Under the pieces are notes generated by a model. The model was given only the letters and a program-made list of their open reading frames with translations, was not told the DNA's origin and ran no database searches. The translations under genes were made by a program, and so were the position numbers. A stretch of 64,000 nucleotides of DNA from Shigella phage SP18, in the sequence record GQ981382; one strand, 5' to 3'. Below are positions 46,690-49,334 of this stretch, in pieces. Each line of letters opens with the position of its first letter. Positions within the stretch are counted from its first letter, which is position 1.

Positions 46690-48189
46690 ATGGATATTAA
46701 AATCAACTTTCTAAATTTTAGTCACGTGCATGTTGAATGTGAAGATGGAATCTTCTACGAACTCCGTGATTACTTCAGCTTCGAAGCTGAAAACTATCGC
46801 TTCAATCCAAAGTTCAAGCAGGGAGTTTGGGACGGACGAATCCGCCTCCTGGATTACAATCGTAAATTACCATACGGTTTGGTTAATCAAATTAAAAAGT
46901 TCGCTGACCAGTTTGGTTATTCATTCTGGATTGACCCGCAAATCACCGAGAAAGAAGAAATCTCTCGCGAAGAATTCGACAAATGGGTTGAGTCAAAAGA
47001 AATCTATTCAGGCAATACCAAGATAACGCCTCATTGGTATCAATCTGACGCCGTATATGACGGTCTGGTCAACAGAAGAAAGATTCTGAACTTACCTACG
47101 TCTGCAGGTAAAAGCCTCATCCAGGCGCTTCTGGCGCGATATTATCTCGAGAACTATGAAGGCAAGGTGCTTATCCTTGTTCCTACAACCGCGCTTGTTG
47201 ACCAGATGATTAATGACTTTGTTGATTATCGGCTTTTCCCTCGTGAAGCTTGTCTGGGTATTCGTTCCGGGACTAAACGCGATTCTGATGCGATGATTTA
47301 TGTATCGACTTATCAGACGGCTGTAAAACAACCTAAAGAATGGTTTGGCCAGTTTGGCCAGTTTATGAATGACGAATGCCACATGGCTACAGGTAAATCG
47401 ATTTCGACGGTTATCGAAGGCCTTACGAATTGCATGTTTAAATTTGGTCTGTCAGGTTCACTCCGTGATGGCAAAGCCAACCTTATGCAATATATGGGTC
47501 TGTTTGGTGATATCTTTAAACCAGTATCAACATCCAAATTGATGGAAGATGGCCAGGTTACTGACCTTAAAATAAATAGTATTTTCCTTCGTTACCCTGA
47601 TGAATTCACTGTTAAAATGAAAGGTAAAACTTATCAGGATGAAATTAAGGTAATTACAAAAGCTACACGCCGAAATAAATGGGTAACAAATCTTGCTCTC
47701 AAGCTTGCTAAAAAAGATGAAAACGTCTTTTTGATGTTTAAGAATATCGAGCACGGTAAATCGATGTTTGAAATGCTTAAGGAAGCTGGTCATGAGAAAG
47801 TGTATTATGTTTCCGGGGAAGTTGATACCGAAACCCGTAATGCTCTGAAGGTCATGGCAGAGAATGGAAAGGGAATTATTGTTGTAGCTTCATACGGTGT
47901 ATTCTCAACGGGGATTTCCGTTAAAAACCTCCATCATATTATTTTCGCTCACCCGGTCAAGTCAAAGGTAATTGTACTCCAGACAATTGGTCGTGTGCTT
48001 CGAAAACATGAATCCAAATCACAAGCAAACGTTTTTGATATCGTTGATGATATGGGTGTTAAACCTAAATCAGCAAATGCTAAAAAGAAATATGTTCATC
48101 TTAACTTTGCCCTAAAACATGGCCTTGAACGTATACAACGATATGCTGATGAACGTTTTAACTATGTAATTAAACAGGTGGAAATTTGA
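46690..48189 (+). CDS. uvsW: UvsW helicase
   Basis: ATG at 46690; MDIKINFLNFSHV... and helicase motifs (LPTSAGKS, MNDECH) match recalled T4 UvsW; late promoter at 46654-46661. Confidence 0.9.
   Translation: MDIKINFLNFSHVHVECEDGIFYELRDYFSFEAENYRFNPKFKQGVWDGRIRLLDYNRKLPYGLVNQIKKFADQFGYSFWIDPQITEKEEISREEFDKWVESKEIYSGNTKITPHWYQSDAVYDGLVNRRKILNLPTSAGKSLIQALLARYYLENYEGKVLILVPTTALVDQMINDFVDYRLFPREACLGIRSGTKRDSDAMIYVSTYQTAVKQPKEWFGQFGQFMNDECHMATGKSISTVIEGLTNCMFKFGLSGSLRDGKANLMQYMGLFGDIFKPVSTSKLMEDGQVTDLKINSIFLRYPDEFTVKMKGKTYQDEIKVITKATRRNKWVTNLALKLAKKDENVFLMFKNIEHGKSMFEMLKEAGHEKVYYVSGEVDTETRNALKVMAENGKGIIVVASYGVFSTGISVKNLHHIIFAHPVKSKVIVLQTIGRVLRKHESKSQANVFDIVDDMGVKPKSANAKKKYVHLNFALKHGLERIQRYADERFNYVIKQVEI
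48168..48185 (+). repeat. 18-bp direct repeat AATTAAACAGGTGGAAAT, copy 1 (3' end of uvsW)
   Basis: Exact second copy at 48860-48877 at the 3' end of the HNH endonuclease gene. Confidence 0.9.
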
Positions 48190-48877
48190 ATTATCAAAAA
48201 ATATATGATGATTTAATTGGGAGTCGAAAGGCTTCCAAACCGATTGGATACACGGAATCTCACCATATCATTCCAGAATGTATGGGTGGACCTGATACAC
48301 AAGAAAACAGAGTCAACCTTACTCCGGAAGAACATTTCGTTGCGCATAAATTATTGGCCAAAATTCATCCTAATCATTACGGTCTTATAAAGGCCGTCAT
48401 TGCTATGGGTATGAGCTCTCGAACACATCAACGACAATTCAATAAATCGTATGGATGGGAGCGTAGACAAATGTCAGTTCTTCAAACTGGTGAAGGCAAT
48501 CCTTTTTATGGTAAACACCATACTGAAGAACATAAAGAATATATGAGCCAATTATTAAAGGGTCGCAAAATAACTTGGGCTGATAAAATATCCGCGACAA
48601 AGAAAGCGAATCCGTATAAATACTCTCAAGCACAATGTCAAGCTATATCTGAAAGAAATAAAGGTGAAGGTAATTGGATGTATGGTAAATCACATACACC
48701 AGAAGCATCAAAGAAAATTTCAGATAAAGCAAAAGAACGTTATAAGGACCCATCCAAAAATCCTGCCGCTAAGAAAGTGGTTTTAAACGGGATTGAATAT
48801 GGTTCGATGAAGCAAGCTTCTGTAGCAACGGGGCTTTCTTTATATAAAATCAGAAATTTAATTAAACAGGTGGAAAT
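48186..48877 (+). mobile_element. free-standing HNH homing-endonuclease cassette inserted between uvsW and uvsW.1
   Basis: HNH ORF bounded by 18-bp direct repeats; uvsW and uvsW.1 are adjacent in T4. Confidence 0.6.
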
Positions 48878-48881
48878 ATAA
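48186..48881 (+). CDS. HNH homing endonuclease (mob-like) with NUMOD3-like repeats
   Basis: TTG start overlapping uvsW stop; ESHHIIP...N...EH HNH core; inserted between uvsW and uvsW.1. Confidence 0.7.
   Translation: MNYQKIYDDLIGSRKASKPIGYTESHHIIPECMGGPDTQENRVNLTPEEHFVAHKLLAKIHPNHYGLIKAVIAMGMSSRTHQRQFNKSYGWERRQMSVLQTGEGNPFYGKHHTEEHKEYMSQLLKGRKITWADKISATKKANPYKYSQAQCQAISERNKGEGNWMYGKSHTPEASKKISDKAKERYKDPSKNPAAKKVVLNGIEYGSMKQASVATGLSLYKIRNLIKQVEI
48860..48877 (+). repeat. 18-bp direct repeat AATTAAACAGGTGGAAAT, copy 2
   Basis: Exact match to 48168-48185; both encode the terminal IKQVEI. Confidence 0.9.
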
Positions 48882-49108
48882 TGAAATCCTTCGAAGAAAT
48901 TATGTACGAAGCATCAATTGAAGGCTTTATGGCTAAGATTGGCTCCTGTCAGACCATGGACGGTCTGAAGGAGTTGGAAGGCTATTATAAGAAACGCAGC
49001 AAAGAAGCTGAACTGAAAGATTCCGATGATATCAGTGTTCGTGACGCTCTTGCCGGTAAACGCGCCGAGCTTGAGGATATGGACGACGACGAAGACGAAG
49101 ATTTCTAA
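48881..49108 (+). CDS. uvsW.1: UvsW.1 small acidic protein
   Basis: 75 aa with acidic tail DDDEDEDF, TAATG start, in conserved position. Confidence 0.7.
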   Translation: MKSFEEIMYEASIEGFMAKIGSCQTMDGLKELEGYYKKRSKEAELKDSDDISVRDALAGKRAELEDMDDDEDEDF

Positions 49109-49115
49109 ATAAAAA

Positions 49116-49150
49116 GGCCCCAACCAAAAGGAAGGGGCAAAACCAAAAAA
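49116..49150 (-). terminator. rho-independent terminator for minus-strand uvsY operon (GCCCC-loop-GGGGC then U-run on minus)
   Basis: Stem 49117-49121/49134-49138, A-rich plus-strand flank 49139-49150. Confidence 0.6.
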
Positions 49151-49166
49151 TGGTTAACAACACTAG

Positions 49167-49334
49167 CTAAATTAAAAGTTGGGTCTCGTTCAGTTGCTCT
49201 TCTGTATTTTCCGTAACTGGCAAACTCTGAACATAATTATAACAGGCGCCCGGATGCACCGGACCTTGGTCTGTATCCACAACCAATGCAGAATCGATTG
49301 GAGTTTTACAGACAACACAAATCTTATCTGACAT
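49167..49334 (-). CDS. small Cys-containing protein (55 aa), position of T4 uvsY.-2
   Basis: Manual translation MSDKICVVCKTPIDS...; below the 60-aa track cutoff; followed by minus-strand terminator. Confidence 0.4.
   Translation of the reverse strand: MSDKICVVCKTPIDSALVVDTDQGPVHPGACYNYVQSLPVTENTEEQLNETQLLI

What the first reader, a model, noticed from the sequence alone, without database searches (positions are those of the whole stretch)
48168..48881. HNH homing endonuclease inserted between uvsW and uvsW.1 with an 18-bp duplication, so that UvsW and the endonuclease share the same last six residues
AATTAAACAGGTGGAAAT occurs at 48168-48185 and 48860-48877. Both uvsW and the HNH gene therefore end ...IKQVEI. 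The endonuclease uses a TTG start overlapping the uvsW stop, and uvsW.1 starts by TAATG overlap at its end. This is a footprint of insertion that preserved the coding end of the host gene and the translational coupling to uvsW.1.
Basis: seen in the sequence. Interest (0 to 1): 0.5.

Follow-up and report, generated by a model that had tools for sequence, protein, structure and literature searches.

The report
Homing endonuclease borrowing uvsW's gene end
A selfish endonuclease gene sits in the last six codons of a T4-like phage's uvsW helicase gene: a second copy of those codons restores the helicase's end, while the endonuclease reads through the original codons and reuses their stop codon and their link to the next gene, a design found here in at least five phage genera, including classical phage T6.

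Summary
The exact repeat is 19 bp (48167-48185 and 48859-48877), or 21/22 over 22 nt, and is far beyond chance. UvsW and the 231-aa ORF both end in IKQVEI. The TTG/TGA and TAATG overlaps are as described.

Relatives without the insert (EAWsc9, TH57, VR7 and others) have one copy of the repeat, giving exactly the predicted empty junction.

The ORF is a Mob-type HNH homing endonuclease with two NUMOD3 motifs and an I-TevI-like HTH. It is under strong purifying selection (dN/dS 0.02-0.1).

Its family (49-97% identity) was found at the uvsW|uvsW.1 junction in every context examined. These were Gaprivervirus, Dhakavirus, Tequatrovirus (including T6), Jiaodavirus and four metagenomic contigs. Two other HNH lineages occupy the same site, in P479/YenP8 and in Aeromonas AsFcp_2.

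Wherever an empty relative was available, the endonuclease's last codons match that genus's resident uvsW tail (only about two codons in Jiaodavirus). In most lineages the relocated uvsW tail is a diverged copy that travels with the cassette, together with about 120-200 bp of variant uvsW 3' sequence.

So the repeat is not a transposon-style footprint. It is a built-in part of an old gene-end-replacement cassette, and in this lineage the two copies are identical. The closest known parallel is the C-terminal duplication made by endonuclease ORFs in fungal mitochondria.

The parts
46690..48189 (+). uvsW helicase gene (499 aa), ending in ...NYVIKQVEI* with TGA at 48187-48189
   Evidence: The ORF is listed. 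Pfam finds UvsW_N, ResIII and Helicase_C. The protein is 99% identical to UvsW of UPEC01 and EAWsc9. ATG 46690 corresponds to the annotated start in relatives.
48100..48166 (+). HEG-linked variant tract at the 3' end of uvsW (limits approximate). This haplotype (GCTGATGAACGTTTTAACTATGTA...) is shared by all HEG+ Gaprivervirus genomes and by VR7, and differs from the other empty genomes.
   Evidence: The window differs from EAWsc9 at 6/30 and 6/50 positions next to the repeat, against 5/200 further upstream.
48167..48185 (+). Repeat copy 1 (TAATTAAACAGGTGGAAAT). It encodes the present C-terminus of UvsW (IKQVEI) and carries the SD-like AGGTGG for the HEG start.
48186..48189 (+). TTGA overlap: HEG TTG start codon (48186-48188) and uvsW TGA stop codon (48187-48189)
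   Evidence: The same 4-nt overlap, with ATG, GTG or TTG, is present in every HEG+ relative.
48186..48881 (+). Free-standing Mob-type HNH homing endonuclease gene (231 aa)
   Evidence: dN/dS 0.02-0.1.
48186..48216 (+). Predicted RNA hairpin (11 bp) that contains the TTG start codon
   Evidence: It is predicted in Gapr, Dhaka and Tequ sequences but is not a conserved consensus structure.
48217..48238 (+). GC-rich 8-bp hairpin with a GAAA loop inside codons 11-18 of the HEG. It covaries across HEG-A lineages.
   Evidence: 48/48 canonical pairs in six lineages, with 7 of 8 positions showing at least two pair types.
48249..48347 (+). HNH (beta-beta-alpha-metal) catalytic motif, residues 22-54 (YTESHHIIPECMGGPDTQENRVNLTPEEHFVAH)
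   Evidence: E24, H27, P30, C32, G35, N41, H50 and H54 are invariant. There are weak sequence matches to solved HNH domains. The AF2 model has strands at 24-27 and 42-45 and a helix at 47-60.
48465..48722 (+). Region with two NUMOD3 DNA-binding motifs (internal repeat 48489-48530 / 48663-48704)
   Evidence: Pfam PF07460, E = 6.7e-19, two stretches. This is direct repeat D1.
48777..48872 (+). C-terminal I-TevI-like helix-turn-helix module (residues 198-229). Its last helix runs into the borrowed uvsW codons.
48859..48877 (+). Repeat copy 2: the resident uvsW tail. It now encodes the last six residues of the HEG and carries the SD for uvsW.1.
   Evidence: From here on, the window is identical to the empty-site sequence at the 21-nt tail and differs at only 1 of the next 30 and 1 of the following 50 nt.
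48879..48883 (+). TAATG overlap: HEG stop codon (the former uvsW stop) and uvsW.1 start codon
   Evidence: The junction is identical in empty genomes.
48881..49108 (+). uvsW.1 (75 aa)
   Evidence: Pfam UvsW-1, E = 1.6e-24.

Best explanation
What it is. The 692-bp insert is a free-standing, Mob-type HNH homing endonuclease gene (HEG). Its family is specific for the uvsW|uvsW.1 junction of T4-like phages.

Layout. The element is a 'gene-end replacement cassette' that lies inside uvsW, six codons before the original stop. Its left part is a variant copy of the last ~100-200 bp of uvsW. That copy ends in a surrogate tail and a new stop codon, which overlaps the HEG start (ATTTGA). Its right end is the HEG core, which has no stop codon of its own. 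The core reads in frame through the resident last six codons of uvsW and uses the old stop codon and its TAATG overlap with uvsW.1.

The repeat. The 19-bp direct repeat is therefore the surrogate tail (copy 1) plus the resident tail (copy 2). Because the tail contains the SD-like AGGTGG, each downstream cistron (the HEG, then uvsW.1) keeps a ribosome-binding site. The operon stays translationally coupled in the order uvsW, HEG, uvsW.1.

How it spreads (inferred, by analogy with MobE and the Seg enzymes). In mixed infections the enzyme nicks or cuts HEG-less uvsW within its last ~200 bp. Repair then copies the variant tract plus the HEG from the donor. The right-hand homology starts exactly at the resident tail.

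This lineage (inferred). In Gaprivervirus type A the surrogate tail is identical to the resident one. The most likely cause is short-patch conversion, or retention of the recipient's 3' end as primer during repair. Constraint on the SD and tail sequence would then keep the copies identical. The identity does not imply a recent insertion. The perfect repeat also allows scarless loss of the HEG, or repair that bypasses it. Phage VR7 looks like such a product.
For: Shown directly:
- Empty sites have a single repeat copy: Gapr EAWsc9, TH57, VR7, PSD2001 and VR25, JS98, T4, Mineola and PX29.
- The HEG tail equals the resident tail of each genus: Gapr IKQVEI, Dhaka MKQVDL, Tequ KTVNL plus the GGGCTTCGGCCC hairpin, Angel KEVMIENT.
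- The uvsW tail in HEG+ genomes is diverged: MKEVQI, MKEVKL, VKHVEL, IKEIMLE. The Dhaka and Tequ surrogate tails match each other at 18/21 nt (my count from the sequences), better than either matches its own resident tail (15/21 and 13/21).
- The core HEG ends at ...LR(K/N)L, followed by a 1-7 aa lineage-specific tail, in 14 family members.
- Every family member whose context was examined lies at this junction with the same 4-nt start overlap.
- Divergence is asymmetric. T6 against T4 gives 6/18, 6/30, 7/50 and 23/100 differences going upstream from the uvsW end, then 0/400, and 0/231 in uvsW.1. AsFcp_2 against PX29 and the other pairs behave the same way.
- Distribution is sporadic. HEG-A is in 4 and HEG-B in 2 of 31 Gaprivervirus records. 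The HEG is in 13 of 189 records matching the Jiaodavirus query and in 49 Tequatrovirus records.
- HEG type A and type B occur on the same flanking haplotypes: TH40 with YenP8, and UPEC01 with P479.
- dN/dS is 0.02-0.1.
- HEG identity tracks UvsW identity between genera.
- The SD duplex is -7.0 kcal/mol before both starts.
- There are no terminal inverted repeats and no intron match in Rfam.
- VR7 is the only empty record that carries the HEG-A-linked left haplotype.

From the literature: start/stop overlap and internal hairpins or terminators are known for T4 mobE and segF, and MobA and MobE nick their targets (PMC2988022).
Against: - No cleavage activity or target site has been demonstrated for this family. 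The window protein itself does not reach Pfam's HNH threshold; only the relatives in P479 and AsFcp_2 do.
- In the window the two repeat copies are identical, so this genome alone cannot show which copy is resident. That inference rests on sister lineages.
- In Jiaodavirus and in contigs L087, L089 and L090 the borrowed tail is short or not recognisable, so the tail duplication is not universal.
- The HEG-linked changes in uvsW are not at the same positions in all genera, so no candidate target sequence could be derived.
- The direction of the VR7 event (loss versus ancestral state) is not resolved.
Confidence: 0.75

Rival explanations
1. The 19-bp repeat is a de novo duplication made when the HEG entered this Gaprivervirus lineage. 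It could be a transposon-like target-site duplication from staggered cuts. It could also be a microhomology or template-switch product of an illegitimate insertion exactly at the uvsW stop.
For: The two copies are perfectly identical, and the insert is bounded exactly by them. VR7 has the same left haplotype and an empty site, so it could represent the pre-insertion state.
Against: - There is no transposase or integrase and there are no terminal inverted repeats.
- The same architecture occurs with diverged copies in Dhakavirus, Tequatrovirus and Angelvirus, and with a different HEG in P479. The duplication therefore predates this lineage.
- Type A HEG divergence tracks host divergence.
- All five database type A Gaprivervirus genomes and the window share the perfect repeat despite dS up to 0.29 in the HEG. 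Perfection therefore does not indicate recency.
Confidence: 0.12
2. The HEG is a decaying or inactive passenger. It is retained only because deleting it would disturb expression of uvsW and uvsW.1, and the repeat has no current role.
For: No activity data exist. The start codon is a weak TTG and lies in a predicted hairpin. The HEG is rare in each genus.
Against: - The ORF is intact at 231 aa in all eight Gapr and Dhaka genomes, with dN/dS 0.02-0.1 at dS up to 1.4.
- The catalytic residues are invariant across 41 homologues.
- HEG types A and B are swapped on the same backbones, and flank divergence is sharp and one-sided, which indicates ongoing mobility.
- The perfect repeat would allow scarless deletion, so retention cannot be explained by polar effects.
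Confidence: 0.07
3. The shared C-terminal hexapeptide is functional mimicry. The HEG carries UvsW's tail as a protein-interaction motif, for example to reach the same partner or DNA structures as UvsW.
For: The tail is conserved in type ((I/M)K.V.(I/L)) among UvsW proteins, and the cassette always restores it on UvsW. In the model, the HEG's last helix runs through the borrowed residues.
Against: HEGs of the same family in Jiaodavirus and in L087, L089 and L090 end in ...RNL...RIKNG...LKG and ...L, without the tail. Tail identity is at the nucleotide level and continues into the non-coding hairpin and spacer in Tequatrovirus. That pattern is what shared DNA predicts, and selected peptide similarity does not predict it.
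Confidence: 0.04
4. The repeat is an ancestral or chance feature unrelated to the insertion.
For: None found.
Against: The expected number of chance matches is 0.01. All empty relatives have one copy.
Confidence: 0.01

Closest known systems
T4 MobE (and MobA-D): free-standing HNH homing endonucleases of T-even phages
   Same: - Homologous N-terminal HNH domain: 34% identity over 86% of the query, E = 4e-19. Both fall in PHROG 655.
- Free-standing gene inserted between two conserved genes of one functional unit.
- The start codon overlaps the stop codon of the upstream gene (nrdA UAAUGA mobE). There is a structured RNA or terminator in the 5' part of the ORF. Presence among relatives is sporadic (PMC2988022).
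   Different: - The site differs: uvsW|uvsW.1 rather than nrdA|nrdB.
- The C-terminal DNA-binding region differs: two NUMOD3 motifs plus an I-TevI-like HTH.
- This ORF has no stop codon of its own. It reads in frame into the resident tail of the upstream host gene, while a surrogate tail is supplied upstream. No such 3' duplication is mentioned in the review ('duplicat' occurs 0 times).
- No biochemical data exist for this family.
Mobile endonuclease ORFs (mORFs) with C-terminal duplication, or 'gene hybrids', in fungal mitochondria (Allomyces macrogynus atp6; Glomus atp6, atp9, cox2, nad3)
   Same: An endonuclease ORF is inserted in the 3' part of a host gene. It brings a foreign in-frame substitute C-terminal coding segment. 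The native C-terminal segment remains downstream and is closest to that of uninvaded relatives (PMC3630166). Here the diverged surrogate end sits upstream and the resident tail downstream in the same way.
   Different: - The mitochondrial ORFs are LAGLIDADG or GIY-YIG enzymes, not HNH.
- Their duplicated segments are 50-280 bp, against 18-27 bp here.
- In atp6 and cox2 the native remnant is not expressed. Here it is translated as the end of the endonuclease, and it keeps the stop codon and SD that couple to the next gene.
- In the window the two copies are identical rather than diverged.
T4 SegE, SegF and SegG free-standing GIY-YIG endonucleases ('intronless homing' with co-conversion of flanks)
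   Same: The predicted mode of spread is the same: cleavage of the HEG-less allele in the neighbouring gene, followed by co-conversion of the flanking sequence (PMC2988022). SegE also targets uvsW, and it flanks the other end of uvsW in T4, T6 and HY03.
   Different: The nuclease family is unrelated. No tail duplication or in-frame read-through into host codons has been described for them.

Membership tests
HNH (His-Me finger) homing endonucleases, T4 Mob type | beta-beta-alpha-metal HNH motif with a conserved catalytic His, an Asn and a metal-binding His | tested here: met
HNH (His-Me finger) homing endonucleases, T4 Mob type | Sequence homology to an experimentally characterised member (MobE) | tested here: met
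   tblastn against T4T mobE: 33.9% identity over residues 1-198, E = 4e-19. PHROG 655, E = 6.9e-57.
HNH (His-Me finger) homing endonucleases, T4 Mob type | Modular DNA-binding region (NUMOD and/or HTH) | tested here: met
   Two NUMOD3 motifs, E = 6.7e-19. The C-terminal module matches the I-TevI DNA-binding domain (probability 0.97).
HNH (His-Me finger) homing endonucleases, T4 Mob type | Presence/absence polymorphism at one fixed site among close relatives | tested here: met
HNH (His-Me finger) homing endonucleases, T4 Mob type | Co-conversion of flanking sequence with the HEG | tested here: met
   A variant tract of ~120-200 bp in the uvsW 3' end is linked to the HEG in five genera, and the right boundary is sharp. 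That this results from homing is inferred.
HNH (His-Me finger) homing endonucleases, T4 Mob type | Site-specific nicking or cleavage of the HEG-less allele, and super-Mendelian inheritance | not testable with these tools
   This needs biochemistry and phage crosses.
Transposable element with target-site duplication | Transposase or integrase gene and terminal inverted repeats | tested here: not met
   The only ORF is the HNH endonuclease. No terminal inverted repeats bound the insert.
Transposable element with target-site duplication | The duplication is generated at each insertion, so its copies start identical and belong to the target | tested here: not met
   In Dhakavirus, Tequatrovirus, Angelvirus and P479 the upstream copy differs from the resident sequence. 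The Dhaka and Tequ surrogate tails resemble each other more than either resembles its resident tail.
Mitochondrial-type mORF gene hybrids (C-terminal duplication) | An endonuclease ORF in the 3' end of a host gene, with an in-frame substitute C-terminus upstream and the native C-terminus retained downstream | tested here: met
   described in PMC3630166. This is a similarity of architecture only. The nuclease family, the host and the scale differ.
Group I/II intron-encoded endonuclease or intein | Intron RNA structure around the ORF, or an in-frame protein-splicing domain | tested here: not met
   No intron family matched in Rfam at E <= 1 over 47800-49300. uvsW and uvsW.1 are separate genes in empty genomes (PMC1524935). 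The labels 'group I intron endonuclease' and the joined CDS in some records are annotation artefacts.

The most novel reading that the evidence does not exclude
This is the first phage example of the mitochondrial 'mORF with C-terminal duplication' strategy. A family of HNH homing endonucleases has stayed at one site, inside the last codons of uvsW, through the radiation of Tevenvirinae. More distant HNH lineages use the same site in Aeromonas phages. The family persists because it is built as a gene-end replacement cassette. It supplies a surrogate host-gene tail that carries the SD for itself, and it borrows the resident tail, stop codon and coupling signal. Where the two tails are identical, as in this window, the repeat makes the element scarlessly reversible. 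It can be lost by deletion or bypassed during repair, leaving HEG-less but probably cleavage-immune alleles such as VR7. That would explain why most lineages keep the two tails diverged.
Probability: 0.4. Interest if true: 0.55.

Novelty: new variant of a known kind. Interest (0 to 1): 0.45.

Why it matters
Free-standing homing endonuclease genes must enter compact phage operons without harming essential neighbours. This locus shows one precise way to do that. The host gene's end is replaced, the resident end is reused as the endonuclease's own C-terminus and stop codon, and the ribosome-binding site inside the tail is duplicated, so both downstream cistrons stay coupled.

The design recurs in at least five genera and with three HNH lineages, and it is present in classical phage T6. 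T6 x T4 crosses could therefore test it directly. T6 differs from T4 only by the HEG and a variant tract of about 200 bp: 0/400 differences further upstream and 0/231 downstream.

The locus also offers a natural test of how direct repeats affect HEG loss. In addition, it flags recurrent annotation errors in public records: truncated HEG starts, 'intron' labels, and joined or fused uvsW annotations.

Tried and rejected
- IMG/VR scan with the HEG protein. It returned 63 loci, none above 55% identity and none at the uvsW|uvsW.1 junction. It added nothing on the junction. One contig (L068) has uvsW split by a different HEG.
- RNAalifold on a MAFFT alignment of 13 HEG 5' regions. It predicted no consensus structure because indels put the hairpins out of register. 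Folding each sequence separately, and tallying pairs in a manual register, showed the covarying hairpin.
- Deriving the cleavage or recognition site from positions that differ between HEG+ and HEG- genomes in all genera. No consistent positions emerged. I conclude only that the linked tract covers the last ~120-200 nt of uvsW.
- The idea that the 'DERFNY' (GAACGTTTT) haplotype is an immunity marker specific to HEG+ genomes. I dropped it because HEG-less VR7 carries the same haplotype.
- Sigma-70 promoter and terminator scan. The counts were no higher than in shuffled sequence.
- Literature searches. I found no description of this HEG family or of a tail duplication at uvsW. The library is limited to open-access papers and preprints, so earlier description elsewhere cannot be excluded.
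Full report
**1. The observation**

The 18-mer AATTAAACAGGTGGAAAT occurs exactly twice in the window, at 48168-48185 and 48860-48877. The expected number of chance matches is 0.01, and none of 100 shuffles gave two. Reading the sequence adds one matching base upstream, so the exact repeat is 19 bp (TAATTAAACAGGTGGAAAT, 48167-48185 and 48859-48877). The repeat finder extends it to 21/22 identity over 48164-48185 and 48856-48877, with a spacing of 692 bp.

The three genes involved are:
- uvsW, 46690-48189, with Pfam UvsW_N, ResIII and Helicase_C. It ends in ...NYVIKQVEI*.
- A 231-aa ORF, 48186-48881, which ends in ...IRNLIKQVEI*.
- uvsW.1, 48881-49108, with the Pfam UvsW-1 domain.

The ORF's TTG start overlaps the uvsW TGA (ATTTGA), and its TAA overlaps the uvsW.1 ATG (TAATG). 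Every descriptive element of the finding is correct.

**2. The empty site**

The window is a Gaprivervirus-like T4 relative; its region is 98.4% identical to phage UPEC01. Of 748 phage records matching the flanks, only a few carry the insert.

HEG-less Gaprivervirus genomes (EAWsc9, TH57, VR7, PSD2001, VR25) read ...TATGTAATTAAACAGGTGGAAATATAATGAAATCC. That is a single copy of the repeat, with uvsW ending in IKQVEI* and overlapping uvsW.1 by TAATG. This is exactly the window minus 692 bp.

**3. What the ORF is**

- It matches PHROG 655 'homing endonuclease' at E = 6.9e-57.
- It contains two NUMOD3 motifs.
- It is 34% identical to T4 MobE over its first 198 residues, E = 4e-19.
- In an alignment of 41 homologues, E24, H27, P30, C32, G35, N41, H50 and H54 are invariant. 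This is the HNH signature.
- An AlphaFold model (pLDDT 86) has the expected strand-strand-helix at residues 24-60. It ends in a small strand-strand-helix-helix module that Foldseek matches to the I-TevI DNA-binding domain (probability 0.97).

Matches to solved HNH domains are weak but consistent. Pfam's HNH model passes its threshold only in the P479 and AsFcp_2 relatives, not in the window protein.

The TTG start is supported because homologues begin with ATG or GTG at the same aligned codon, and because the catalytic residues lie upstream of the first internal ATG. Some database records start the gene at that internal ATG and so truncate the motif.

The gene is intact in all eight Gaprivervirus and Dhakavirus copies, with dN/dS 0.02-0.1 at dS up to 1.4. 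The protein is therefore under selection. Cleavage activity itself is not shown.

**4. The wider pattern**

The same HEG family ('type A', 49-97% identical) was at this junction in every context examined, always with the 4-nt start/stop overlap:
- Gaprivervirus: UPEC01, DK-13, pEC-M719-6WT.2 and TH40.
- Dhakavirus: UP19, PSD2002 and ESCO10.
- Tequatrovirus: UFV-AREG1, HY03, T6 and, in all, 49 records covering at least 80% of the query.
- Jiaodavirus: Roth78, Metamorpho and, in all, 13 records.
- Four metagenomic or Morganella-phage contigs.

A different 261-aa HNH gene ('type B', 28% identical) sits at the same position in P479 and vB_YenM_P8. A third, 32% identical, is in Aeromonas phage AsFcp_2.

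Identity among type A HEGs tracks UvsW identity between genera: 84% against 84% for Gapr-Dhaka, 59% against 77% for Gapr-Jiao, 57% against 71% for Gapr-Tequ, and 67% against 77% for Jiao-Tequ. This suggests a long association with the site rather than recent transfer between genera.

**5. Which copy of the repeat is which**

In sister lineages the two tails differ, and the pattern is consistent. The HEG's last codons are the resident uvsW tail of that genus:

| Genus | HEG end (HEG+ genome) | Resident uvsW end (HEG-less genome) |
|---|---|---|
| Dhakavirus | NLMKQVDL*, then ATGAAGTCC (UP19) | VMKQVDL*, same continuation (JS98) |
| Tequatrovirus | RKTVNL*, then GGGCTTCGGCCC hairpin and spacer (T6, UFV-AREG1) | MKTVNL*, same hairpin and spacer (T4) |
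| Angelvirus | NKEVMIENT* (AsFcp_2) | VKEVMIENT* (PX29) |
| Gaprivervirus, type B | FIKQVEI* (P479) | IKQVEI* |

The uvsW tail upstream of the HEG, by contrast, is a diverged surrogate: MKEVQI* in Dhakavirus, MKEVKL* in Tequatrovirus, VKHVEL* in P479 and IKEIMLE* in AsFcp_2. By my count from the sequences, the Dhaka and Tequ surrogate tails match each other at 18/21 nt. That is better than either matches its own resident tail (15/21 and 13/21), which suggests the surrogate tail travels with the cassette.

Across 14 type A proteins the conserved core ends at ...LR(K/N/Q)(L/I/M), followed by a lineage-specific tail of 1-7 residues. The HEG core therefore has no stop codon of its own and reads into whatever host sequence follows. 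In Jiaodavirus only about two codons of the resident tail remain (a 9-nt gap relative to the Tequatrovirus HEG). In three metagenomic lineages the tail is not recognisable, so the duplicated tail can decay. One metagenomic lineage (L088) has near-perfect copies, like the window (IKEVKL* and LKEVKL*, 16 nt exact).

**6. The cassette has a left arm and a sharp right edge**

I compared each HEG+ genome with a close HEG-less relative.

For T6 against T4:
- Going upstream from the uvsW end, the differences are 6/18, 6/30, 7/50 and 23/100.
- Beyond that there are 0/400 differences.
- In uvsW.1 there are 0/231 differences.

For AsFcp_2 against PX29, the corresponding values are 4/18, 7/30, 11/50 and 6/100, then 0/400, with near-identity on the right flank.

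Dhakavirus, Jiaodavirus and Gaprivervirus show the same asymmetry against a higher background.

So the HEG is linked to about 120-200 bp of variant uvsW 3' sequence. Homology with HEG-less genomes resumes exactly at the resident tail, except in Jiaodavirus, where it resumes about two codons before the stop. This is what a co-conversion tract looks like for free-standing endonucleases that cut the neighbouring gene (PMC2988022). It places the likely target within the last ~200 bp of uvsW. That placement is an inference; I could not derive a consensus target.

Within Gaprivervirus, type A and type B HEGs occur on the same flanking haplotypes: TH40 with YenP8, and UPEC01 or DK-13 with P479. The cassettes therefore move between backbones.

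**7. Why the repeat may matter functionally**

The tail contains AGGUGG, which pairs with the anti-SD at -7.0 kcal/mol. One copy lies 4 nt before the HEG's TTG, and the other lies 7 nt before the uvsW.1 ATG. The surrogate tails of Dhaka, Tequ, L088 and L090 carry AAGAGGU at spacing 5. Duplicating the tail therefore restores UvsW's C-terminus, gives the HEG a ribosome-binding site next to the uvsW stop, and leaves the uvsW.1 initiation region untouched.

Start/stop overlap and low-level coupled translation are already known for mobE.

Two predicted RNA hairpins follow:
- An 11-bp stem (48186-48216) contains the TTG.
- A GC-rich 8-bp stem with a GAAA loop lies at 48217-48238. Its sequence differs between lineages but its pairing is maintained: 48/48 canonical pairs in six lineages, with 7 of 8 positions showing at least two pair types.

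mobE and segF have terminators in the 5' end of their ORFs. Here no U-run follows the stem, so its role (attenuation, stability or translation control) is unknown.

**8. The window's perfect repeat**

All five database type A Gaprivervirus genomes and the window have identical tails, although their HEGs differ by dS up to 0.29. The resident tail is also invariant in all Gaprivervirus genomes examined, while the adjacent 30-50 nt differ by 12-20%. Perfection therefore reflects constraint, homogenisation or both. It does not indicate recency.

The window still has the variant tract just upstream of copy 1 (6/30 and 6/50 differences against EAWsc9). That gives a patch of resident-type sequence immediately next to the HEG. 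Two mechanisms could produce this patch, and both are inferences. One is short-patch conversion. The other is repair in which the recipient's own 3' end (...GGTGGAAAT) primes synthesis on the donor.

VR7 is the only HEG-less Gaprivervirus record that carries the type A-linked tract. It matches type A genomes at 96-99% there, against 80-89% for all other empty records. It sits on a VR25-like backbone. Its junction is the window's sequence with one repeat copy and the HEG removed. VR7 is therefore either a scarless loss or bypass product mediated by the 19-bp repeat, or a relative of the pre-insertion allele. The direction is unresolved.

**9. Alternatives excluded**

- The insert has no transposase and no terminal inverted repeats.
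- No intron family matches the region in Rfam.
- uvsW and uvsW.1 are separate genes in empty genomes. The fused T4 annotation is a known sequencing error (PMC1524935 and PMC6486255).
- Functional mimicry of the UvsW tail is unlikely. Several family members lack the tail, and in Tequatrovirus the identity continues into non-coding DNA.

**10. Comparison with known systems, and novelty**

The gene is a new, uncharacterised member of the Mob-type HNH homing endonucleases. Many records already annotate it as 'homing endonuclease', including T6 and Yersinia phage PST (as 'mobD').

The architecture is what I did not find described for phage HEGs in the open-access library: a surrogate host-gene end upstream, and in-frame read-through into the resident host-gene tail downstream. 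The Edgell review never mentions duplication.

The closest described parallel is the C-terminal duplication, or 'gene hybrid', made by LAGLIDADG and GIY-YIG mORFs in fungal mitochondria (PMC3630166). The present case differs from it in nuclease family and in scale (18-27 nt). It also differs because the resident remnant is still translated and keeps operon coupling.

I rate it a new variant of a known kind and of moderate interest.

Noticed in passing
window 48217-48238 (and the same position in L002, L004, L007, L087-L090): A GC-rich 6-8 bp hairpin with a 4-6 nt loop lies inside codons ~11-18 of the HEG and is kept in every type A lineage, with different stem sequences. In six lineages 48/48 pairs are canonical, and 7 of 8 positions covary. 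Free energy is -11.5 to -15.4 kcal/mol. The encoded peptides are quasi-palindromic (SRKAS, RAQNRAR, RGLKRGL). No U-run follows the stem, so it is not a typical terminator.
   Followed up: partly
L081 (phage VR7) 1890-2010, compared with window 48089-48189: VR7 is the only HEG-less Gaprivervirus record carrying the uvsW 3' haplotype otherwise linked to the type A HEG, and it sits on a VR25-like backbone. It could be a scarless HEG loss or bypass through the 19-bp repeat, or the pre-insertion allele.
   Followed up: partly
L091 (T6) and L011 (T4): Classical phage T6 carries this HEG and T4 does not. The two differ by 42 substitutions in the last ~200 nt of uvsW, 0/400 further upstream and 0/231 in uvsW.1. 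In T6 and HY03, uvsW is flanked by two homing endonuclease genes (segE-like upstream, this HNH gene downstream).
   Followed up: partly
L003 (P479) 1987-2772; L010 (vB_YenM_P8) 1987-2772: A second, unrelated-looking HNH HEG (261 aa, 28% identical, no NUMOD3) occupies exactly the same site with the same start overlap and the same borrowed IKQVEI tail. It shares flanking haplotypes with type A genomes (YenP8 with TH40; P479 with UPEC01 and DK-13), which suggests cassette replacement at one site.
   Followed up: partly
L068 (IMGVR_UViG_3300007631_000108) 10-2736: A metagenomic contig has a uvsW homologue split into two pieces (aa 68-261 and aa 270-499), with an HNH HEG relative between them. This is a different insertion site, inside the helicase core.
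   Followed up: no
L006, L076, L086, L011 (public annotations): Several public annotations are wrong. UPEC01 and pEC-M719-6WT.2 start the HEG at an internal ATG (residue 33), which removes the HNH histidines. UPEC01 labels the gene 'group I intron endonuclease'. Metamorpho annotates uvsW plus uvsW.1 as one joined CDS around the HEG. T4 RefSeq still shows the fused uvsW.
   Followed up: yes
L088 2480-2504 and 3187-3211: A metagenomic T4-like contig has a near-perfect tail duplication like the window's (IKEVKL* and LKEVKL*, 16 nt exact), and its HEG starts with GTG. No HEG-less relative of this lineage was available to show its resident tail.
   Followed up: no
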